From a virus: DNA of 64,000 nt. A program made the translations under genes and the position numbers. The stretch lies in IMG/VR virus record IMGVR_UViG_3300001765_000052; one strand, given 5' to 3'. Positions 4,592-38,762 of this stretch are shown here, in pieces (the first letter of the stretch is position 1; every line of letters starts with the position of its first letter). A model generated the notes under the pieces. The model was given only the letters and a program-made list of their open reading frames with translations. It ran no database searches and had not been told where the DNA came from.

Positions 4592-5815
4592 ATGGATATC
4601 ATTGAATTATATAAAAATATACTATCTGTAGGTGGATTAGTTGTCGATAGTGAGGGTAACGTTTCCGGTTCAGATAAAGGTAGAACTATGCCATTTACAG
4701 TAGATGGTAAAAGATTAGTATTACCAACAAGAGAACATTTAAAAAATCCAGATTGGTCTAATAGAGTTGCATTCCATCCGTTATGTGAAGATATCATGAG
4801 TCCCGAGAGTCCAGTATTGGGAAGATTCCGTAGAGCAATCAACATGCGACTCAATAAAACAATTGGCTTCTTGATGATGGAGCTTTTGGATATTGCACTC
4901 AATACAGAAATGCATGGAAGCTTAACACCTGACCAAGCTAACATGTTAGTCAGTGTAAAAAATGTAGATAAAGATACACTTAAAACACTTACATCAATTG
5001 TTGAAAAAATAATTCGTAATGATGGTGAAAAGTGTTTTGTTCATTTATTTATTAAAAAGGGTGGCACTGTCGGTTTAAAGAAATACAGTAGGGCAACTAT
5101 TGTTACGTTTCCATTCTATAATGAACTAATGAAGAAAGAGAAACAAATCTACGATATAACAGTTAGAACGCGTGATAGGGAAGTTTTTGCTGGTCTACTA
5201 GAATATATCATACCAGATATCGGAACAGATAAGTTTTTTGATACAGGTAGTTTAACAGATATTGCACCATCATTAGATTCATTAATGAGAGCATTAACTA
5301 AAATTGTTAGTAGAACAAATATTGTTGTAAATGATTTTAAAAATATTCTTAAAGATGATACTGATGAATATAATTATAATGGTGAATGGATATCTGCATT
5401 CGATAACTTAGATAATTATGAGAAAGATATCAGAATGATACCAATGCAAACTGGTAACAGTAGTCATCAATCTTCACAAGCTACTGCACCTGTTTATGCA
5501 GTAGCGCCACCACAAATCAATGCCCCACCAGTAACAAACTATCCAATTTTTCAACAAGTACCTAAAGAGGTGGAATTTAAGAAAGATGACCAAACTATTA
5601 CAAATAGAGGAGGCTTAGATTTCGCATCTTTAATTAAATCTAACACTCCACAACAAGGTTATAATACATATCAACCAATGTCGGGACCCATGGCATTAAG
5701 AATTAACCAACAGATGCCTATGCAAAATCAGCAGATGCCTATGTATAATCAACCTATGTATAACCAACAGATGCCTATGCAAAATAGACAATTTGGTGGG
5801 TTTGGTAATATTTAA
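4592..5815 (+). CDS. Conserved core protein (phiKZ gp70-like) with Q/P/M/N-rich disordered C-terminus
   Basis: 407 aa, GKRLVLPT..FHPLCE..ESPV motif; synteny. Confidence 0.6.
   Translation: MDIIELYKNILSVGGLVVDSEGNVSGSDKGRTMPFTVDGKRLVLPTREHLKNPDWSNRVAFHPLCEDIMSPESPVLGRFRRAINMRLNKTIGFLMMELLDIALNTEMHGSLTPDQANMLVSVKNVDKDTLKTLTSIVEKIIRNDGEKCFVHLFIKKGGTVGLKKYSRATIVTFPFYNELMKKEKQIYDITVRTRDREVFAGLLEYIIPDIGTDKFFDTGSLTDIAPSLDSLMRALTKIVSRTNIVVNDFKNILKDDTDEYNYNGEWISAFDNLDNYEKDIRMIPMQTGNSSHQSSQATAPVYAVAPPQINAPPVTNYPIFQQVPKEVEFKKDDQTITNRGGLDFASLIKSNTPQQGYNTYQPMSGPMALRINQQMPMQNQQMPMYNQPMYNQQMPMQNRQFGGFGNI
5704..5785 (+). repeat. Intragenic repeats encoding NQQMPM units
   Basis: taaccaacagatgcctatgcaaaat at 5704-5728 and 5761-5785 with degenerate copies between. 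Confidence 0.8.
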
Positions 5816-6292: not shown

Positions 6293-7468
6293 ATGTTAGA
6301 TCATAAAATAGAGCCGAATGAATTGCATGCGGATTTAGTATCAAATTGTGCTTTCAATCCATGGCTTCAACACGATTCATCTGGTCGTGTATATATGACA
6401 AGTTCGCATTTAGGACAAATGCTTGTTATAAATGGTTCTACTGAAAGAAAATGCCAAACCGGTATTGAAAATGAATATGGTAAATATACATTCAATGTCA
6501 AAATGCCAGTGGATGGTGAAATTGTCGATATCATTGACCGGTATACACAAACATTAGGTCCAGATAGTATTAACGAAAATCCACAAACTATTGTAGTATA
6601 CGAAGATGTTGCTACTAAAGAACTAGGTATTATAAATCTTGTTAAGTATTGTTCTAATCACCAATACTTTGGTTTCAAATATAAAGGTAAAAGTGGTTTA
6701 GATAAAATACGGATAGGTGCTTTTATAGCCAAAGATACTATATTTTTAGACTCTCCAAACATAAGTGATGATGGTGGATATAAATATGGCATTGAATTAA
6801 ATATGGCATTAATGACACATCCTGCAGCATCAGAAGACGGTGTTTTGATATGTAAAGATGTCTTACCAAAATTAGGTTTTAAGACATATGAAAATAGAGT
6901 AGTAGAGTACGGTAGTAAAAGATTTGCTCTTAATCTTTACGGCGATATAAATAACTATAAACCTTTTCCGGATATTGGGGAATTAGTTAGATCGGATGGT
7001 ATTTTAATGGCGCTTCGAAATTATGAACCAGATATTTTATCCCCTATAGAACAAAGCGTTAAAGACACAATGGAGGTGGATTTTTTATTTGATAGCACTG
7101 TTTATGCAGGTGGTCCGGGCGGAAGAATAGTTGACATTAAAATAGTGCACGATATATCAAAAACAAATTGCGCTGATATCCACATGGATAAACAAGCACA
7201 AAAATACGACCATGCAAATCGTCAGTTTTATACAAAAATTGTTAATGTGTGGCGAAAATTTCACGCTATTAGAGGCGAGTCATTAAGGATGACAGCAGAA
7301 TTTCATAGATTAATAGTGGAAGCTTTATCTGTAACCGGTACGAAGTCAGATGTAAAAGTTAGTAAGCTCTATAGAAAAGCACCTCTAGATGAATACCGAA
7401 TTGAATTTGTTATTCAATATGATATAACACCTGGAATTGGGTATAAGTTAACTGATATTCATGGTGGT
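6293..7468 (+). CDS. nvRNAP beta-like subunit (phiKZ gp71-73-like), exon 1
   Basis: RNAP beta motifs (SSGRVYMTSSHLGQ, ASEDG, GYKLTDIHGG); the conserved HGGKG motif is broken after GGT at 7468. Confidence 0.9.
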
Positions 7469-9332
7469 TTGGCATTTTTATAAATTGATGAATTTAGGTA
7501 TATAGTATGTGTCAATAAATAAAGGACGCATATGAAATGCCTAATTGAAAATACTTACTTCAAAAGTATTCCAGGAAACACAGAATTATTGATTTCGATC
7601 GAGAAGCGGTTTGTGACTTATGATCTCAAACCTTGTGATATTCACATTGATAGTAATGGATTTGTGAATATAGAGATGTTCGGAATAATAAGGAAAGTAG
7701 ATGTTTCTTGGTTAAAACTAATAGCACATTTTGAAGTAAATTTACCTGAAAAATTCCACGAATATACTTTCCGAATTAACTTCATAAACGCAGGCAAAGG
7801 CATGATTAGGGCAACAATTAATTCGACAATGGTATTTTCAAACCCTATATTAATTCAAAATAAATATAGGATAATACCTAATTTTACGGATTACGCAATC
7901 AGTAAAGAATCAGAATTAATTGATGTTCACTTTTATCGTATTGTGCCTAGGTTTAATCGCGGGTCTTTTAATTACCCTGAAGTTTTTATATATTGTCCAG
8001 ATAAGAATTCATACAAACATATTAAAGTTCACAGATTGGTAGCATTGGCTTGGGTTAAAAATAGAGATTTCTTAACCCAACCAATAGTGAATCATATCGA
8101 CGGTAATAAACAAAATAACCATTACTCTAATTTAGAATGGTGTAGTTCGTCACATAACAGTAAGCACGCGTACACATTAGGATCATATGCAATCAACAAA
8201 CCATGTAAGGTAAAAAATCATCTTACAGGGGAAGTATCGCACTTTGTTTCTTTAATGGACGCTAGTAAATTTATTGGACTAAAACACTATCTCAATTCTA
8301 AAATGTTAAAAAAGGGCGCTAAGCCTAGACTTTTAAATAGATACTACGAAGTAAAAGAAATGTCCGACGACGATGTAAATTGGTATTATGATAAACTTAA
8401 GGCAGCATCTTTAGATGAAGCTTTTAGTTTATTGATAAAAAATGATAAAAACGTAGTCGGCATTTTTCATAGTCTAGAAAAAGCAAAAAACTTTTTTAAT
8501 ATGGAGGATAAAAATCTAAATGTTTTTGAATTAATAAATGCAATTGAAAAATTGCATCCAACATATGTAATTAATTACATTGACAATTATTACTTTGAAC
8601 CAATTGAATGTAAAGATTTAGTAACTGGTGATGTATTCTGCGCAGCTACCTGGGTGGACTTACAAACAATGTTAAAAATTAAAACAGATTTGGCTTCTTA
8701 TAATAAATTAATTAAAACTTTTGGACAAATAAAGTATAAGCAATGGTTATTTCGTTATAAATCAGATGCGCCTTGGGATGTTAACGCAAAAGGTGTTGGT
8801 GTTAGAGGAAACAAAATAACGGCTACAAACACAATGAGTGGTGAAGTAGTTGAATTTGATTCTTTAGTAAATGCCGTCGATTACTTTAATGTAGATGTTA
8901 AAACGATTCTAAGAAGACTTAATAATTCGGAAAAGAAGTACAATGGTTGGGTTTTTCAGGGTGAAACAAATAATCAATTTGCAAAAATAAAAAAGCCTCT
9001 GTCCAAAGGACAGAAATATCCCTTAATTGACGGGAAACCCTTTATAGCCTCATGCACCAACTTATCCTAGGAATAGAGATAAGGGCTGAATTAACTACTC
9101 AGATATGGTAAAAGATATGAGGATTAGGCAATCCGCAGCTGAGCTCCCAGAACGGGAGAGAGTTCAACGACTAACCCCTTACCAGGGTGTAGAGCCAAGT
9201 GGCTCGAAACAGGGAAATTCATTATTAATGAATAAGATATAGTCTGGTCTGTATGGTGACATACAGAAGCTTAGTCGCTCGTGAGAGCCGCTGTAGCTGG
9301 GTGGGCTTAACGAACCTACTTGAACACAAACG
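7469..9332 (+). mobile_element. Group I intron (IA2-like) with HNH ORF in the P1 loop
   Basis: Follows exon-terminal U, ends in G; P aattgacgggaa 9025, Q aatccgcagc 9130, R gttcaacgacta 9162, S aagatatagtct 9234; IGS aagcc 8993-8997; splicing restores KLTDIHGG-KGTICQ in frame. Confidence 0.92.
7532..9070 (+). CDS. Intron-encoded HNH homing endonuclease with C-terminal NUMOD1-like repeats
   Basis: VHRLVALAW..VNHIDGNKQNNHYSNLEW; ORF end overlaps the ribozyme core. Confidence 0.9.
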   Translation: MKCLIENTYFKSIPGNTELLISIEKRFVTYDLKPCDIHIDSNGFVNIEMFGIIRKVDVSWLKLIAHFEVNLPEKFHEYTFRINFINAGKGMIRATINSTMVFSNPILIQNKYRIIPNFTDYAISKESELIDVHFYRIVPRFNRGSFNYPEVFIYCPDKNSYKHIKVHRLVALAWVKNRDFLTQPIVNHIDGNKQNNHYSNLEWCSSSHNSKHAYTLGSYAINKPCKVKNHLTGEVSHFVSLMDASKFIGLKHYLNSKMLKKGAKPRLLNRYYEVKEMSDDDVNWYYDKLKAASLDEAFSLLIKNDKNVVGIFHSLEKAKNFFNMEDKNLNVFELINAIEKLHPTYVINYIDNYYFEPIECKDLVTGDVFCAATWVDLQTMLKIKTDLASYNKLIKTFGQIKYKQWLFRYKSDAPWDVNAKGVGVRGNKITATNTMSGEVVEFDSLVNAVDYFNVDVKTILRRLNNSEKKYNGWVFQGETNNQFAKIKKPLSKGQKYPLIDGKPFIASCTNLS

Positions 9333-33973: not shown

Positions 33974-34987
33974 ATGATTAATGAAACAGACGAAATATTA
34001 GTACCTGAAGAGCACCCAATATATATCGGATATTATTATATACCGAATAACATGGATCTTGTAATATCTAGAGATGGTAAAGTTATAAATTTAAATACAG
34101 GTAATAAATTAAAAAATAATATAGGCTTTGACGGATACGTAAGAACATCTTATCAATCAATTGATAAAATAAAAAGTTATAAAATTCATAGACTTTTAGC
34201 AGAAACATTTATTGGTCGTCCGCATAGACATAAAGATAAATCATTTGATATATTAGAAACTAATCATATTGACGGTGATAAATCGAATTATACATTAACA
34301 AATTTAGAATGGGTTACTACATCTGAAAACCAAATACACGCAATAACTATAGGGTTAACAAATTATAGACGTGTTCTAGCTAGAAACATACAAACTGGTG
34401 TAATTAGTGAATATGGTTGTGTTAATTTTTGCGCTGAGGAATTTGATATAAATGCAGATGGTTTGAGGCGGCATTTAAAATCTTCACTTGCTGGAACCAT
34501 AACCAAAAAATGGAATGTATTTAAATATGACGATGGTCAATTATGGCCCGCGCTAAAAAATAAAAATTATCATGAAAACAATTGGGATGTAGATTATGGT
34601 GTGTGGTATGTAACTAATGTTAGTACAGGATTTACATTCATATTTCACACATTGAATGATGCAGCTAAAGAGCACGGATTTACTGTTTCCGCTGTAAGTT
34701 CTGCAAGACTTAAATATGGTGAAAGTGTACCATATAAAGGGTATTTATTTACATACGATCACCAACCAACAGCCCATATACTTAAACAATTACCTGCTAG
34801 AGCTAAAAATGCCAGAGCTAAAGGTGTTCCTCTAAAAGTAACAAACACGGTAACCGGGGAGATATTTAATTATCCAAGTACTTATAGTGCTTCTAGAGAA
34901 TTAAATATAACAACTGGTCGGATAGAATTTGCTTTTATTAATCGTGAAGGTATTGTCGATAATTATAAATTTGAAAAAATTATTTGA
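33974..34987 (+). CDS. Free-standing HNH homing endonuclease (NUMOD4-like/HNH/NUMOD1-like)
   Basis: IHRLLAETF..NHIDGDKSNY...NLEW.T.SEN..HA. Confidence 0.88.
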   Translation: MINETDEILVPEEHPIYIGYYYIPNNMDLVISRDGKVINLNTGNKLKNNIGFDGYVRTSYQSIDKIKSYKIHRLLAETFIGRPHRHKDKSFDILETNHIDGDKSNYTLTNLEWVTTSENQIHAITIGLTNYRRVLARNIQTGVISEYGCVNFCAEEFDINADGLRRHLKSSLAGTITKKWNVFKYDDGQLWPALKNKNYHENNWDVDYGVWYVTNVSTGFTFIFHTLNDAAKEHGFTVSAVSSARLKYGESVPYKGYLFTYDHQPTAHILKQLPARAKNARAKGVPLKVTNTVTGEIFNYPSTYSASRELNITTGRIEFAFINREGIVDNYKFEKII

Positions 34988-34989
34988 TG

Positions 34990-35031
34990 TTAATAATAGA
35001 CAATTGGAATATTCCAATTGTCTATTATTAA
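34990..35031. terminator. 42-bp perfect palindrome between the HNH gene and the ribozyme core
   Basis: ttaataatagacaattggaat|attccaattgtctattattaa. Confidence 0.75.
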
Positions 35032-35043
35032 TTATTTTATTTT

Positions 35044-35331
35044 TAAGCTTCTACACATCTCTGTGTAGAACAGACCATATCTTCACCCTTCTATTGCTAG
35101 TTAGGGTGTCTCCCATTTCCCTACCACTTGGCAGGTACGAGCAGCTACGCTCTGGCCGTTGAGCCTTACCCATATCTTTCGACTTAGGGTCTTGGTTGCT
35201 GATTGACTCTACCTAATATTTTTCAAACATATCATAACCTGCTTTCGCGGATATTGTAGTATATTAGTTTAGCAAGTTATTCCAGCAATTAAAGAGATTA
35301 TCTTCTGTAATATTACTATTACAGGACGCTA
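35044..35331 (-). ncRNA. Group I ribozyme core (IGS, P2-P9) located downstream of the last pol exon, outside any intron
   Basis: Minus strand: IGS uagcg 35331-35327, P2 cuguaaua/uauuacag, P aauugcuggaa 35290-35280, Q aaucagcaac 35204-35195, R gcucaacggcca 35164-35153, S aagauaugguc(u) 35083-35072, P9 with GAGA loop 35070-35049. Confidence 0.88.
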
Positions 35332-35536
35332 GTATTTGTTTTTTCAAATTCAGTTAAAAGCATATCGAGTGAGGGTAATTTAAATAGACTACAAGCGATC
35401 TCTACTGAATTAGTAAAACCACCTGATAAATTTATCCCACTCATTCTTCTAGCTCTATCTTCTATTGAATCTATCTGTATTAATTCTCTACTGGTAGTTT
35501 CTTTAGATATGTTAAAACAAATACCCCCGTTCGGGT
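35319..35536 (-). CDS. Split family-B DNA polymerase N-terminal subunit (phiKZ gp82-like), exon 3
   Basis: Hand-translated (Y)PNGGICFNISKETTSRELIQI...TSVL*; YP....NIS.ET is the second half of PolB motif A; absent from ORF track. Confidence 0.85.
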
Positions 35537-35586
35537 CTTTCGTGTTAAAATAAATTAATTAATTTATTCAGCTATTTAGAAAGTTA
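35537..35586 (-). mobile_element. 50-nt mini-intron (5' splice site + P9.1'/P9.2/P9.0'/omega-G only)
   Basis: ucgU|uaacuuucuaaauagcugaauaaauuaauuaauuuauuuuaacacgaaaG|acccg; removal joins T+AC = Tyr giving DLDVSSSYPN. Confidence 0.8.
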
Positions 35587-35702
35587 ACGAGCTACTTACG
35601 TCCAAGTCAGCTGTAAATGCTCTGATGTTTGTACTTAGATTTGGATTCTCTTCTACAATCTTTAAACCATTATCTGCCACCATGTGCGCAGGAAGCATCA
35701 CG
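35587..35702 (-). CDS. DNA polymerase N-terminal subunit, exon 2 (116 nt)
   Basis: VMLPAHMVADNG...TNIRAFTADLDVSSS; first half of PolB motif A. Confidence 0.85.
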
Positions 35703-37416
35703 CTTTGTTTCCGGATCAGTTCGTTATTCTGAACCCGTTGTCTACAAAAGTGACAACTGCTATATGTCTCCATATAGAAAAGACTATATCATTACCCTAT
35801 ATCTATCGTAGGGTAGTTACTATTTCCACTCACTTGAGTGTACTCCCTCTCGGGATAGTCGTTGAACCTTACCCATATCCTAACTGGACTTAGGGTCTTG
35901 GCTGCTGATTGACTCTACCTTACTATTTTCAAACTGTGGCTTTGATTTTCATCTAGCAGTAGTTAGTAAGTCTAGCGAGTGGTTCCAGCAATTAAATAAC
36001 TTGTCATTCGTTAATTACTTAACGAAGGGGCCATCTGTTCTAGTTGTTTAATTCATAAAAAGACAAATTTTTACCTTTAATTTTTCTAATTCCATGACAC
36101 GTCTTTTCAATCTGGGCTATTGAACTATTTAATTCTTTAGCTGCTATTTTAGACGATGCATAGAAAGCGATTTCATTTCCATTCTCATCTCTAGATATTA
36201 TTCCTCTACCACCGGTAGTCGGAAATTCTCTATAGATAAGAAGCTCTTTATCAGAAAACACAGGCCACTCTATATTAAGAGTTTTGTATTTGAAAATAAA
36301 ACCATGTAAAGGTCGAGAACGAACACCGTTTACGTGTTCTCGGATTGCTGTTATATGCACCCCAGTACCATCTGAAGCAGAATCTATTCCTGAGAAAATT
36401 ATTATTTCACCACTGAATATATCTTTAGCCATAACAGTGAAATAACCACCAGAGTTTTTTATTCTCTGATCGGTTATCGGCCAATCCTTTTCTACTTTCC
36501 GTTTAAATATCCAACCATCTTCATAAAAGTATCTACGTTGTTCGTTTAATCTATTAGAAATAACCTGTGGAGAAATATTAGTTTCTTTTGAGGCTTTTTC
36601 CAGTGACATGAATTCAAACGTAATTCCAGTTATTAAATTTTTAGCTGATACAGGAATTGTGCTATTAGGCATAAGTCCATAATCTAATGCATGTTGGTTA
36701 TTTTGGGAATATGTTACCCATTCTAAATTATCTAGATTGTCAAATCCGGGAATTCCATTTTTATGATTGATTACTAATTTAAATGGACTTTTCGGATAAT
36801 GTATAAAAGTCAAACCAAGTGCCCTATGCCGAGAAATGTTTTTTGACTTCTCGTTATCCGAATTAGCCCACGCTTTAGCGTATCCACCTTTAATATTTTT
36901 CTTTTCTTGGTATTTAGTAAAGCACCAAGATTGAAAACTATCGTTTCTTATACTGTACAATATTCCTTCTTTTGAAATAGCGTATCTAGTATAATAAGGA
37001 ACATAATAAAACCCAGGTTTGTTTTCTAATTCAATTGGGCCATTATTGAAACCATAATAAATATTGATAGTATTTGTGTTATTTGGATTCTCATCGATAT
37101 AACGTGCTTCGATTCTATTCCATAAACACGTTGGTAGATTAACTGAATATTTAACTATTGCTATTATTACTCCTAACTCGTAATATTTTGCACCGTCTAC
37201 CCATTCTATCCAAACTTTTTTACACCTATCTATTTTTATGACTTCAATTAGGTTTTCATTTGAATCAAAAATATCTCCAAATTTATTTAGGTAATATCTT
37301 CCGTTACTAAACGGCAAAACTTTCTTTTCTTCAAAATAAAACATACGAAACCTTAATTGTAGATTATCATACAATATATATTAAGGTCTCATAAAATATG
37401 TTAAGAACAATTTAAA
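35703..37416 (-). mobile_element. Group I intron (IA2-like) with HNH ORF in the P1 loop
   Basis: P 35993-35983, Q 35910-35901, R 35867-35856, S 35792-35781; IGS augGCCC pairs exon-1 GGGU and exon-2 CGU; splicing gives SGWV-VMLP. Confidence 0.88.
36040..37374 (-). CDS. Intron-encoded HNH homing endonuclease
   Basis: RHRALGLTF..INHKNG...DNLDNLEWVTYSQN..HA plus NUMOD1-like repeats. Confidence 0.88.
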   Translation of the reverse strand: MYDNLQLRFRMFYFEEKKVLPFSNGRYYLNKFGDIFDSNENLIEVIKIDRCKKVWIEWVDGAKYYELGVIIAIVKYSVNLPTCLWNRIEARYIDENPNNTNTINIYYGFNNGPIELENKPGFYYVPYYTRYAISKEGILYSIRNDSFQSWCFTKYQEKKNIKGGYAKAWANSDNEKSKNISRHRALGLTFIHYPKSPFKLVINHKNGIPGFDNLDNLEWVTYSQNNQHALDYGLMPNSTIPVSAKNLITGITFEFMSLEKASKETNISPQVISNRLNEQRRYFYEDGWIFKRKVEKDWPITDQRIKNSGGYFTVMAKDIFSGEIIIFSGIDSASDGTGVHITAIREHVNGVRSRPLHGFIFKYKTLNIEWPVFSDKELLIYREFPTTGGRGIISRDENGNEIAFYASSKIAAKELNSSIAQIEKTCHGIRKIKGKNLSFYELNN

Positions 37417-38762
37417 ACCCACCCCGATAAACTTGTAGTTTCTGTATCTACATCTTCTTTCATTTCACCACTTGTAGACCCTATTACTTTACCATTCTTT
37501 AAACAAAAATGGTGAAGTGAATCGATTAAACGTTTAGGTTGACTATTGAAATTATTATAATCGCTACAACCTGAAAACATAGGCAAAGAAAGGGATAAAT
37601 CGTTTGTTTTTTCATCTAACATCTCCATTGATATACAGTCAAACATATTATAAACTATATATTCTAGTTTATAATTCTTTTGCATAACCTGGTGCCATTT
37701 TAAACCAGTATATTCATCAGCTTCCTTAAATCTTAATTTACCAATATCGAGTTCTTTACCAAGAATAGCATCCAATGAATAACTTTTTTCTTCAGGTGAA
37801 CCCGTTCTAATTTTCTTATATGCACACATGGCATCTATCCAATAAAAAGAAGATGGTGCAAATACACTGTGCCATCTATCACTGGGTTTATAAGAAATAA
37901 CCACACCAGATGCAGTAGTTTTTTTAGGTAAACCTTCTTTATATTTAAAGTATTTGTATTCTGGTGGTACACTGGGGTCACTCATTATTTCTGCTATATT
38001 GGCACCAGCTCTATCACATGCACTAACTATTTTACCCATATCGAAAGAAAGATTCCACACAGATAAAAAATCTGGCATCCATTCATGAGCTTTTGCTATA
38101 GATACTTTAACTACATCTATTTCGCTTGGGACTATAACAATCTGTGCCTTTATTTTTCTTTTCTCGAAAATTTCTGATAGGTATTTGGTACATAGCATTT
38201 TTACTTTTTGCTCTACATCAATAAACCCTTTTACAAATGATTCTTGTACTACAGTAATAAGTTTATCTTTGAATGACACTGTAGCCATTATGATTTGTTC
38301 AGTGCCATTGATAACATCTGTTTCAGTATCAAATACGGCATTGGTGCTAGGTGTAGTAACATCCCACTTATCTTTATATTTTTGTTTAATAATAGCGGTA
38401 GATGAAATATCTGTTCCATAAATAAATGGAGATTCTTGTAATTCCCTCATTCCTTTTTTAAACCATGGTTTACCTATAGATCTAGCAACGGAATTAACCA
38501 GATTTCTTTGAGTAGATTTAAATTGATCTAATTCATCTATACTAGCCCACTCCTTCTTGGAGGTATGGTTTTGTAAGCCTTTCTTTGTAATATAGTAGTC
38601 GCGCTGAAAATTTGAAATCTGCCTTAGGTTGGGTTTAGTGCTACCGTCCGGGTTATGGATGATTTCCTTGACTACATGTAGATCATTATATGGATCTGCA
38701 TTTGACTTAACGTAAGTTGCGAAGCGGCATTCTATGATGGGCTCTGGCGTTTTGGTTTCCAT
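37417..38762 (-). CDS. DNA polymerase N-terminal (3'-5' exonuclease) subunit, exon 1; spliced product ~559 aa
   Basis: Exo motifs FDTETD, WNLSFD, YSLDAIL, YNMFDC. Confidence 0.85.

What the first reader, a model, noticed from the sequence alone, without database searches (positions are those of the whole stretch)
35044..35586. Externalised group I intron: 50-nt mini-intron in DNA polymerase motif A with its ribozyme core placed after the last exon
Seen in sequence (minus strand): PolB motif A is broken as DLDVSSS-T|50 nt|AC-CCG. Removing the insert (after U, ending in G, the group I rule) restores SSSYPNGGICFNISKETT; unspliced, the frame stops after four codons. The 50 nt has no catalytic core, only elements matching the 3' end of the RNAP intron in this window: agcu (P9.1 3' strand), a hairpin (P9.2), aaca (P9.0 3' strand) and omega-G. 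A complete P2-P9 core sits 200 nt downstream, after exon 3. Its IGS uagcg pairs with the mini-intron 5' splice site cgu|ua including the canonical U-G pair. Its post-P7 uguu pairs with the mini-intron aaca, and it ends in agcu just where P9.1 should continue. P7 is changed from GACUA/UAGUC to GGCCA/UGGUC with pairing kept, suggesting selection. Inference: the intron is permuted so that the 3' splice site and last exon lie inside the P1 loop. The ribozyme would stay on the mRNA 3' UTR and excise only 50 nt, a natural analogue of engineered trans-excision-splicing ribozymes, possibly able to act in trans. I do not know of a described natural example.
Basis: partly seen in the sequence, partly recalled or inferred. 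Interest (0 to 1): 0.97.

Follow-up and report, generated by a model that had tools for sequence, protein, structure and literature searches.

The report
Group I intron with detached ribozyme
A jumbo-phage DNA polymerase gene is broken by a 50-base insert that cannot splice itself, and the self-splicing ribozyme that should remove it sits after the end of the gene; six related phages keep this layout with matching base-pair changes, an arrangement I could not find described for natural introns.

Summary

- **Layout in the window.** On the minus strand, a phiKZ gp82-type polymerase gene carries a 50-nt insert (35586-35537). It splits the Tyr codon of the conserved DLDVSxSYPNG motif. A complete Rfam group I core (35357-35051, 73 bits) follows exon 3 and ends at a terminator.
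- **Same layout elsewhere.** Five metagenomic relatives (L018, L019, L034, L038, L039) have inserts of 49-52 nt at the same site and a core after exon 3.
- **Controls.** Five uninterrupted relatives have no core downstream. Three others (L041, L059, L040) carry ordinary contiguous introns at the same site.
- **Base pairing between insert and core.** The partners change together for the 5' splice site and guide sequence (P1), for P9.1 and for P9.0. The P9.2 hairpin and a helix closing the insert also covary.
- **What it is.** An intron broken in the P1 loop and the P9.1 loop, with the 3' splice site and last exon moved ahead of the ribozyme. The ribozyme would stay on the mRNA.

No RNA data were obtainable. 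I found no published natural example. Earlier unchecked notes of this scan report core-less mini-introns on other phage DNA.

The parts
37417..38762 (-). Polymerase exon 1 (phiKZ gp82-type PolB N-terminal and exonuclease part)
   Evidence: tblastn gives 39-49% identity to jumbo-phage 'DNA polymerase' genes. The 5' splice site GGGUGGGU|UUU is placed by homology (GWV|VMLPAH).
35703..37416 (-). Intron 1: an ordinary group I intron with an HNH endonuclease ORF (37374-36040) between the 5' splice site and the guide; core at 36082-35760
   Evidence: RF00028 at 89.1 bits. HNH_3 and NUMOD-like Pfam hits. The tail folds as P9, P9.1, P9.2 and a short tail. It is absent from L018, L019 and L034, so the mini-intron does not need it.
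35587..35702 (-). Exon 2, ending in ...AGC UCG U (first base of the Tyr codon)
   Evidence: Translation and alignment to homologs.
35537..35586 (-). 50-nt core-less mini-intron. Intron side of P1: 35586-35585. Closing helix: 35582-35579 with 35541-35538. P9.1 3' strand AGCU: 35573-35570. P9.2 hairpin: 35569-35548. P9.0 3' strand AACA: 35546-35543. Terminal G: 35537.
   Evidence: The same elements, with compensating changes, occur in L018, L019, L034, L038 and L039.
35319..35536 (-). Exon 3 (AC CCG ... to stop TAA at 35321-35319), encoding YPNGG...TEFEKTNTSVL
   Evidence: It aligns with the C-terminal part of uninterrupted homologs. pN/pS is 0.27-0.50 in the frame set by excision.
35327..35331 (-). 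Internal guide sequence UAGCG. Its G (35329) lies 5 nt before P2 and overlaps the last codons of exon 3.
   Evidence: Register table. The distance to P2 is similar in intron 1 (5 nt) and in the RNAP intron (4 nt), read, and is 5-7 nt in all six split introns. Standard same-site introns carry the same guide-P2 junction.
35045..35326 (-). Ribozyme core P2-P9 plus the P9.1 5' strand. P2: 35324-35305. P7: GGCCA 35157-35153 with UGGUC 35077-35073. J7/9 UGUU: 35072-35069. P9: 35068-35051. AAGCUU: 35050-35045.
   Evidence: RF00028 at 73.2 bits over the full model. 28 of 81 RNAalifold pairs show compensatory change among five cores.
34989..35032 (.). 20-bp palindromic terminator shared with the convergent HNH gene. 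It ends the polymerase transcript just after the P9.1 5' strand.
   Evidence: Hairpins of unrelated sequence lie after the core in all five relatives (read; no terminator scan was run on them).
33974..34987 (+). Free-standing HNH endonuclease gene, convergent on the core (possible mobility partner, not required)
   Evidence: HNH_3 and NUMOD1 hits. A 72%-identical ortholog sits in the same place in L018. No such ORF was seen after the core in L019, L034 or L039.

Best explanation
This is a group I intron whose parts are encoded in a non-canonical order on one transcript: exon 2, the 5' splice site, a 50-nt mini-intron, the 3' splice site, exon 3, then the ribozyme and a terminator. The mini-intron holds only the intron side of P1, a closing helix, the P9.1 3' strand, P9.2, the P9.0 3' strand and the terminal G. 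The ribozyme holds the guide sequence, P2 to P9 and the P9.1 5' strand.

The downstream core finds the mini-intron through four contacts:
- P1, between the guide UAGCG and CGU|UA, with a U.G pair at the splice site;
- P9.1, between AAGCUU at the very end of the core and AGCU in the insert;
- P9.0, between UGUU and AACA;
- probably the P9.2 loop.

The proposed reaction is the usual one. Exogenous guanosine attacks after U35587. The freed 3'-OH of exon 2 then attacks after G35537. This joins U to AC, restores the Tyr codon of motif A, and releases a G-added 51-nt RNA. The ribozyme stays on the mRNA as its 3' end.

Shown here: the anatomy, its conservation in six contigs, the co-occurrence of insert and core, and covariation of the pairings. 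Inferred: the chemistry, that it works in cis, and that splicing is efficient. Compared with contiguous introns at the same site, the layout is a swap of two adjacent blocks, with breakpoints in the P1 loop and the P9.1 loop.
For: 1. The insert splits an invariant Tyr codon and only one excision restores it, in all six contigs. The lengths 49, 50, 51, 51, 51 and 52 differ modulo 3. The codon is U|AC in five and U|AU in one.
2. Full-length RF00028 cores lie directly after exon 3 in all six: 73.2, 92, 80.3, 88.1, 82.8 and 49.8 bits. No exon lies downstream and a terminator follows.
3. Uninterrupted relatives lack the core. These include two nested within the window's clade (L036, L037), plus L020, FLC9 and RP12.
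4. Among the three sequence types, cognate insert-core duplexes are the best for P1 and P9.1 (matrices). In register, P1 shows U-A to C-G and A-U to U-A exchanges. P9.1 has three unrelated sequences of 4-10 bp and covarying extensions within the window group. P9.0 shows a G-C to A-U exchange.
5. The P9.2 stems all differ and keep pairing. Three keep the UAACG loop found in standard introns. The closing helix also covaries.
6. Standard introns at the same site (L041, L059, L040) have the same guide-P2 junction 8-10 nt after the splice site. L041 and three other contiguous introns of this family (the window's intron 1 and RNAP intron, PhiPA3) show the tail order P9, P9.1 hairpin, P9.2, tail, G. 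L059 and L040 end before their tails.
7. The cores themselves show 28 compensatory pairs. Exon 3 is under purifying selection in the spliced frame.
8. The contigs come from six different assemblies and projects.
Against: - There is no RNA evidence.
- The exon side of P1 is only 3-4 bp.
- In the window, P9.1 is 4 bp. In this AT-rich sequence single helices are weakly significant (shuffle fractions 0.35, 0.015, 0.06, 0.011, 0.10 and 0.004).
- No P10 pairing with exon 3 is evident.
- P9.0 is not convincing in L039.
- The terminal G may be paired in the closing helix and would have to be released.
- Only three sequence types are really independent.
- All relatives are uncultured.
Confidence: 0.8

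Rival explanations
1. The mini-intron is removed by group I chemistry, but the catalyst acts as a separate molecule. It could be the same core on another transcript copy or processed free, or another intron's ribozyme such as intron 1 or the RNAP intron.
For: The pairing logic does not distinguish cis from trans. Engineered ribozymes excise segments in trans (PMC2532722, PMC4094466). Earlier unchecked notes of this scan describe mini-introns that borrow a neighbouring intron's core.
Against: The core is always on the same strand, directly after exon 3, and before the terminator in all six contigs. No sigma-70-like promoter was found between them, although phage promoters are not covered by that scan. 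The guides of intron 1 (GGCCC) and the RNAP intron (AAGCC) do not match CGU|UA. L018, L019 and L034 lack intron 1.
Confidence: 0.08
2. Two unrelated things: an ordinary intron at the extreme 3' end of the gene that splices exon 3 to a tiny last exon, and a separate insertion in motif A that is handled some other way.
For: The C-terminal tails of homologs are variable, so a terminal intron would be tolerated.
Against: Read by eye, exon 3 shows no U-ending complement to the guide near its end. The stop codon lies in or just after the guide or P2. After the P9.1 5' strand comes a terminator, and neither the window nor L018 has a downstream exon or a minus-strand reading frame. The guide and the 3' end of the core covary with the insert. 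Insert and core always occur together.
Confidence: 0.03
3. Decay: the polymerase gene is a pseudogene and the core is a relic of a rearranged intron. Neither is functional.
For: All relatives are metagenomic, so viability is unproven.
Against: The layout persists across lineages whose polymerases are only 53-77% identical. Exon 3 shows purifying selection. The cores show compensatory changes and Rfam scores as high as working introns. The split Tyr codon is kept in all six. gp82 homologs are near-universal in this phage group (299 records).
Confidence: 0.04
4. Translational bypassing, as across the 50-nt gap of phage T4 gene 60 (from my own knowledge): ribosomes hop over the insert.
For: The gap is 50 nt, contains a hairpin, and has a stop codon soon after the break in the window and L018.
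Against: A hop cannot rebuild a Tyr codon whose first base lies before the gap and whose last two lie after it. There are no matched take-off and landing codons. The gap length varies from 49 to 52. The stop comes 4 to 16 codons in. The insert covaries with a ribozyme, not with anything ribosomal.
Confidence: 0.02
5. Assembly artefact: the core really lies inside the 50-nt segment.
For: The genome holds three related intron cores that could confuse an assembler.
Against: The same order appears in six contigs from different projects and assemblers (NCBI WGS, JGI, ENA, Logan). One of the proteins was seen on 7 contigs. No long repeats lie at the three junctions.
Confidence: 0.01

Closest known systems
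Canonical phage group I introns in the same gene and site (metagenomic L041 and L059, and L040 with an HNH ORF); also PhiPA3 gp085, Goslar, and the window's intron 1 and RNAP intron
   Same: The same insertion point (after UCGU, inside the Tyr codon) in L041, L059 and L040. The same guide-P2 junction, the same core (RF00028), the same tail elements (P9.1, P9.2 with a UAACGAA loop, an A-rich tail, a terminal G), and the same predicted chemistry.
   Different: In those introns every part lies between the two splice sites. Here about 280 nt of ribozyme lies outside, after the 3' exon. Only 49-52 nt would be excised, and the ribozyme would remain on the mRNA.
Trans-spliced (discontinuous) group I introns of organelles, e.g. 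Isoetes cox1 (PMC2731911) and Prasinoderma rrnL (PMC3873408)
   Same: The intron is broken in peripheral loops and is reassembled by base pairing of the pieces.
   Different: Those pieces and their exons are on separate transcripts, and both pieces lie between their own exon and the break. Here everything appears to be on one transcript, and the 3' exon is embedded between intron pieces.
Engineered trans-excision-splicing ribozymes and 'spliceozymes' (PMC2532722, PMC4094466)
   Same: A group I core without flanking exons of its own recognises two splice sites on a substrate through P1, P9.0-type and P10-type contacts. It removes the short segment between them.
   Different: Those are laboratory constructs that act in trans. 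Here the arrangement is natural, is tethered in cis to the 3' end of its substrate, and is docked by a split P9.1.
Permuted intron-exon (PIE) constructs, natural back-splicing of ND5-717 (PMC6545197), and circularly permuted group II introns (PMC8637638)
   Same: The order of intron and exon segments in the gene differs from the canonical one.
   Different: In those, the 3' splice site precedes the 5' splice site, so splicing yields circles. Here the 5' splice site still comes first, and a linear mRNA with joined exons is expected.

Membership tests
Group I intron (RF00028) | Conserved catalytic core P3-P9 with a P7 guanosine-binding helix | tested here: met
   cmscan gives 73.2 bits over model 1-253 at 35357-35051. 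The relatives score 49.8-92 bits. 28 pairs show compensatory change.
Group I intron (RF00028) | 5' splice site after a U that forms a U.G pair with an internal guide sequence (P1) | tested here: met
   CGU|UA pairs with UAGCG. The G lies 5-7 nt before P2 in all six contigs, and the pairs flanking the U.G covary.
Group I intron (RF00028) | The excised segment ends in G (omega-G) | tested here: met
   G is the last base of all six inserts, at the only position that restores Tyr-Pro.
Group I intron (RF00028) | All intron parts lie contiguously between the two splice sites | tested here: not met
   The guide, P2-P9 and the P9.1 5' strand lie 3' of exon 3.
Group I intron (RF00028) | Guanosine-dependent self-splicing | not testable with these tools
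   This needs in vitro transcription or RNA-seq.
Trans-spliced organellar group I intron | Intron halves and their exons on separately transcribed RNAs | tested here: inconclusive
   The pieces are 216 nt apart on one strand, with no terminator or sigma-70-like promoter between them. Phage promoters are not covered by that scan.
Permuted intron-exon (back-splicing, circle-forming) arrangement | The 3' splice site lies upstream of the 5' splice site around the exon | tested here: not met
   The 5' splice site (35587|35586) precedes the 3' splice site (35537|35536).
Programmed translational bypass (T4 gene 60 type) | Matched take-off and landing codons, with the coding sense restored without RNA cutting | tested here: not met
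   The Tyr codon is split 1+2 across the gap. There are no matched codons, and the gap length varies from 49 to 52 nt.
Family B DNA polymerase, phiKZ gp82 type | Homology to gp82 and an exonuclease domain with the DxDxSxYPN motif | tested here: met
   tblastn matches 299 jumbo-phage records, including PHIKZ082. PF03104 is precomputed on some homologs. Pfam gave no hit on the window's own exons.

The most novel reading that the evidence does not exclude
The catalytic RNA has been separated from the intron it removes and now acts as a ribozyme resident on the mRNA. It may turn over on other transcripts (true trans action), and the same block swap may have arisen more than once. In a rough tree, the L039 core groups with a standard same-site intron rather than with the other split cores. 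That would make it a natural intermediate between self-splicing introns and a trans-acting splicing RNA. The step is long postulated for group II introns and the spliceosome, but has not been seen for group I. The uncoupling of transcription from translation in nucleus-forming phages (PMC12908238) might be what makes it tolerable.
Probability: 0.25. Interest if true: 0.95.

Novelty: new variant of a known kind. Interest (0 to 1): 0.88.

Why it matters
- **Separating core from intron.** The catalytic core of a group I intron may not need to lie inside the intron. If so, a 50-nt RNA carrying only splice-site and docking elements would suffice as an intron when a matching ribozyme is nearby.
- **Annotation.** Frame-breaking inserts of about 50 nt, and 'orphan' Rfam group I hits after stop codons, should be read together. 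Otherwise essential genes are called pseudogenes or truncated. Five of the six polymerase genes here were called as truncated proteins.
- **Intron evolution.** Peripheral loops (L1 and L9.1) act as breakpoints, and the layout has been maintained over deep divergence.
- **RNA engineering.** It offers a natural, evolved design for cis-tethered excision ribozymes with short programmable contacts.
- **Phage biology.** It may give leverage on splicing inside the phage nucleus.

Tried and rejected
- **Close relatives in phage collections.** Megablast of the region against INPHARED found none. IMG/VR holds nothing closer than 46%.
- **Pattern scan.** A pattern scan of IMG/VR for the mini-intron gave only chance hits.
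- **Column-based counting.** I could not count the long-range pairs by alignment column. MAFFT places the short helices of L038 and L039 in shifted registers. I used per-sequence register tables instead.
- **Cultured example.** Sampled tblastn listings of cultured phages (60 rows each of about 290 records) showed only PhiPA3 and Goslar as interrupted, and both have standard introns. None with the split layout was seen. Most records were not listed.
- **P10.** I looked for P10 pairing with exon 3 and found none.
- **Split protein.** An ATG precedes exon 3 only in L018, so a protein started inside the insert is rejected.
- **Alternative pairing.** RNAalifold paired the guide's AGC with GCU of the terminal AAGCUU. 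This pairing is broken in L038 and is probably spurious.
- **Full tree.** The maximum-likelihood tree of all 122 proteins did not finish. I used FastTree on 66 proteins.

Full report
**Anatomy in the window**

The window comes from a phiKZ-like jumbo phage. Exon 1 of the gene in question matches 'DNA polymerase' genes of 299 jumbo-phage records at 39-49% identity. PHIKZ082 is among the homologs.

The gene runs on the minus strand in this order:
- Exon 1, 38762-37417.
- Intron 1, 37416-35703. This is a normal group I intron with an HNH ORF. Its Rfam core is at 36082-35760 (89 bits).
- Exon 2, 35702-35587.
- A 50-nt insert, 35586-35537.
- Exon 3, 35536-35319.

I placed the splice sites of intron 1 by homology, GWV|VMLPAH.

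Uninterrupted homologs read DLDVSASYPNGE. The window reads ...UCG U, then 50 nt, then AC CCG... Of the 50-nt deletions in neighbouring registers, only removal of exactly 35586-35537 gives Ser-Tyr-Pro. Left in place, the insert gives L-T-F-stop.

A second full-length RF00028 match lies at 35357-35051 (73.2 bits, model positions 1-253). It starts in the last codons of exon 3. It ends at P9 plus AAGCUU, 12 nt before a 20-bp palindromic terminator. Beyond the terminator there is only a convergent HNH gene. This core has no 3' exon to splice.

**Not an artefact and not a one-off**

A metagenome scan and a protein search found many relatives. Five contigs have the same layout:

| Contig | Exon 1 identity to the window | Insert | Core after exon 3 |
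|---|---|---|---|
| L018 | 77% | 51 nt | 92 bits |
| L019 | 74% | 51 nt | 80.3 bits |
| L034 | about 73% (measured against L018) | 49 nt | 88.1 bits |
| L038 | about 53% (measured against L018) | 51 nt | 82.8 bits |
| L039 | about 54% (measured against L018) | 52 nt | 49.8 bits, E 1.6e-11, large peripheral insertions |

- The contigs come from NCBI, JGI, ENA and Logan assemblies. One of the proteins was seen on seven contigs.
- Excision after the U and after the terminal G restores YP(N/S)GG in all six. The lengths differ modulo 3, and the split codon is U|AC or U|AU.
- Exon 3 is under purifying selection in that frame. pN/pS is 0.27-0.50 with near-saturated pS.
- Uninterrupted relatives have no core and only 54-60 nt to the next gene. 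L036 and L037 nest inside the window's clade. L020, FLC9 and RP12 also lack one.

Insert and core therefore occur together in 6 of 6 contigs and in 0 of 5 controls.

**What the pieces correspond to**

Three relatives carry ordinary contiguous introns at the very same site.
- L041 is ORF-less: 74 bits, UCGU|GGAAUGG..., with its guide 8 nt downstream.
- L059 is contiguous as far as the contig reaches.
- L040 carries an HNH ORF.

All three were read. Their guide-P2 junction (GCGACC followed by P2) matches that of L038 and L039, and resembles UAGCGUCC-P2 of the window group.

Four contiguous introns of this family were folded: L041, PhiPA3, the window's intron 1 and its RNAP intron. All have the same tail: P9, a P9.1 hairpin, a P9.2 hairpin with a UAACGAA loop, then 10-12 unpaired bases ending in G. 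In the RNAP intron, P9.1 starts with AAGCUU, just as the window's core ends.

The mini-introns contain, in order:
- a few bases that pair with the guide;
- one strand of a short closing helix;
- a segment complementary to the bases right after P9 of the core;
- a hairpin that keeps the UAACG loop in L019, L038 and L039;
- a short A/C-rich tail, and the terminal G.

The split layout is thus the standard intron broken in the P1 loop and the P9.1 loop. The block [P9.1 3' strand, P9.2, tail, 3' splice site, exon 3] has moved in front of the block [guide, P2-P9, P9.1 5' strand].

**Covariation between insert and core**

There are three sequence types: the window group (window, L018, L019, L034), L038 and L039.

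- **P1, in the register that puts U(-1) opposite the guide G.**
  - Window group: CGU|UA with UAGCG, extending to 8 bp in L018.
  - L038: UCGU|C with GGCGA.
  - L039: UCGU|UUU with AAAGCGA.
  - The intron-side pairs change on both strands. The G lies 5-7 nt before P2 and 256-268 nt downstream of the splice site.
- **P9.1.**
  - AAGCUU pairs with AGCU or AAGCUU in the window group.
  - Its extensions covary: UUU with AAA in L018, UAA with UUA in L034, and A with U in L019.
  - L038 has AAAUCUU with AAGAUUU. L039 has CUGUUUUUC with GGAAAACAG, a helix of 10 bp.
  - These helices always start at the first or second base after P9 and end just before P9.2.
- **P9.0.** UGUU pairs with AACA in the window group, and UAU with AUA in L038. 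L039 is not convincing.
- **P9.2 and the closing helix.**
  - The P9.2 stems are unrelated in sequence and keep pairing.
  - The closing helix also covaries: UUUC/GAAA, UUUA/UAAA, UUUUA/UAAAA and GUUUAUG/CAUAAAC.

Duplex-energy matrices put the cognate combinations first among the three types, for both P1 and P9.1.

Taken one at a time, the helices are only modestly significant in this AT-rich RNA. The fractions of shuffles reaching the observed P9.1 were 0.35, 0.015, 0.06, 0.011, 0.10 and 0.004. The window's own P9.1 (4 bp) proves nothing alone. The weight comes from the same register recurring with different sequences.

The cores themselves have 28 of 81 predicted pairs with compensatory change.

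**Mechanism, and what is inferred**

The best-supported mechanism is ordinary group I chemistry with unusual connectivity.
1. The core, folded at the 3' end of the transcript, binds the 5' splice site through P1.
2. It docks the mini-intron through P9.1, P9.0 and probably P9.2.
3. GTP attacks after U35587.
4. Exon 2 then attacks after G35537.
5. A G-added 51-mer is released. The mRNA keeps the ribozyme as its 3' end.

The closing helix would hold the 3' splice site next to P1. It may stand in for P10, which I could not find.

In L018, L019 and L034 the stop codon is the UAG inside the guide. In the window, L038 and L039 the reading frame runs into or just past P2. Terminating ribosomes would therefore unfold the 5' end of the ribozyme on spliced mRNA.

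If this phage forms a nucleus, as its relatives do (PMC12908238), splicing would occur away from ribosomes. I did not test this for the window.

None of the chemistry has been observed.

**Rivals**

- **Bypassing of the T4 gene 60 type** is excluded by the split Tyr codon, the variable gap length and the lack of matched codons.
- **A pseudogene** is contradicted by selection on exon 3 and on the cores.
- **Misassembly** is contradicted by six independent assemblies.
- **An ordinary terminal intron plus an unrelated insert** is contradicted by the absence of any downstream exon or own 5' splice site, and by the covariation.
- **Help from intron 1** is excluded, because L018, L019 and L034 lack it and its guide does not match.
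- **Action of the core in trans** rather than in cis cannot be separated by sequence.

**Distribution and origin**

On a FastTree of 66 polymerases, the split layout sits in three places, with uninterrupted genes nested among them. This means loss, or spread as a unit.

A rough tree of cores groups L039 with the standard same-site intron L041 (support 0.89). It puts the window group nearest the window's intron 1. Repeated origin is possible. At 55-65% identity I do not consider this settled, and the identical breakpoints favour one origin.

A free-standing HNH gene follows the core in the window and in L018 (72% identity). A gene with an I-TevI DNA-binding domain follows in L038. No comparable ORF was seen after the core in L019, L034 or L039.

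**What is known**

Searches of the paper library found only the following:
- engineered permuted or trans-acting group I systems (PMC2532722, PMC4094466);
- organellar trans-spliced group I introns (PMC2731911, PMC3873408);
- back-splicing of a giant mitochondrial intron (PMC6545197);
- circularly permuted group II introns (PMC8637638).

None has the 3' splice site and last exon placed ahead of a cis-linked core. The library is incomplete, so absence there is not proof.

Earlier notes of this scan are AI-written. Most are unchecked; a later check let the observations stand for two of them. They describe core-less mini-introns beside normal introns in other phages, and circle-forming permuted group I ribozymes. 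The present case differs in that the core has no intron of its own to remove.

Noticed in passing
L016:5219-5810 (Pseudomonas phage PhiPA3, NC_028999.1): The PhiPA3 gp085 'DNA polymerase' CDS is cut short by an unannotated, ORF-less group I intron (RF00028 at 71.7 bits, 5219-5524, tail to about 5575) near the DLD of motif A. The last exon (VSTYPNVSQ...) is not annotated. I could not place its exact splice sites under the U / terminal-G rules.
   Followed up: partly
window 7466-9331 (+): By homology to the bacterial beta-subunit motif HGxKG(V/T)I, the RNAP intron's 3' splice site is ...AAACG|AAAGGAACU, giving HGG|KGTICQ. The 5' splice site is GGUGGU|UUGG, pairing with AAGCC.
   Followed up: partly
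gp82 homologs P0003-P0122: Gene calls for this polymerase stop at three recurrent places: after GW(I/V), after (A/G)D of ADLD, and after SxS. This suggests three intron insertion hot spots within about 40 codons. Dozens of metagenomic polymerases are probably annotated as truncated proteins.
   Followed up: partly
window 33974-34987 (+); L018:3256-4269 (-); L038:5067-5714 (-): Free-standing endonuclease genes are convergent on the detached core. The window and L018 have an HNH gene (72% identical orthologs). L038 has a gene with an I-TevI DNA-binding domain. No comparable ORF was seen after the core in L019, L034 or L039. They may be mobility partners of the whole block.
   Followed up: partly
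window 35319-35331; L018:2890-2894; L019:7711-7715; L034:5227-5231: The stop codon of the polymerase ORF lies inside the ribozyme. It is the UAG of the guide UAGCG in L018, L019 and L034. In the window, L038 and L039 it lies in or just after P2. Termination of translation and folding of the guide therefore compete on the same bases.
   Followed up: no
L042:1244-3001 (Escherichia phage Goslar, MK327938.1): The gp82 homolog of Goslar, a cultured nucleus-forming phage, carries a standard intron with an HNH/NUMOD1 ORF. Its last exon is unannotated. It could serve as a tractable control system.
   Followed up: no
window 35537-35586 and equivalents: The base before the closing helix (C4, or U in L039 and L038) can pair with the terminal G. 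This might hold the 3' splice site inactive until the first step has occurred.
   Followed up: no
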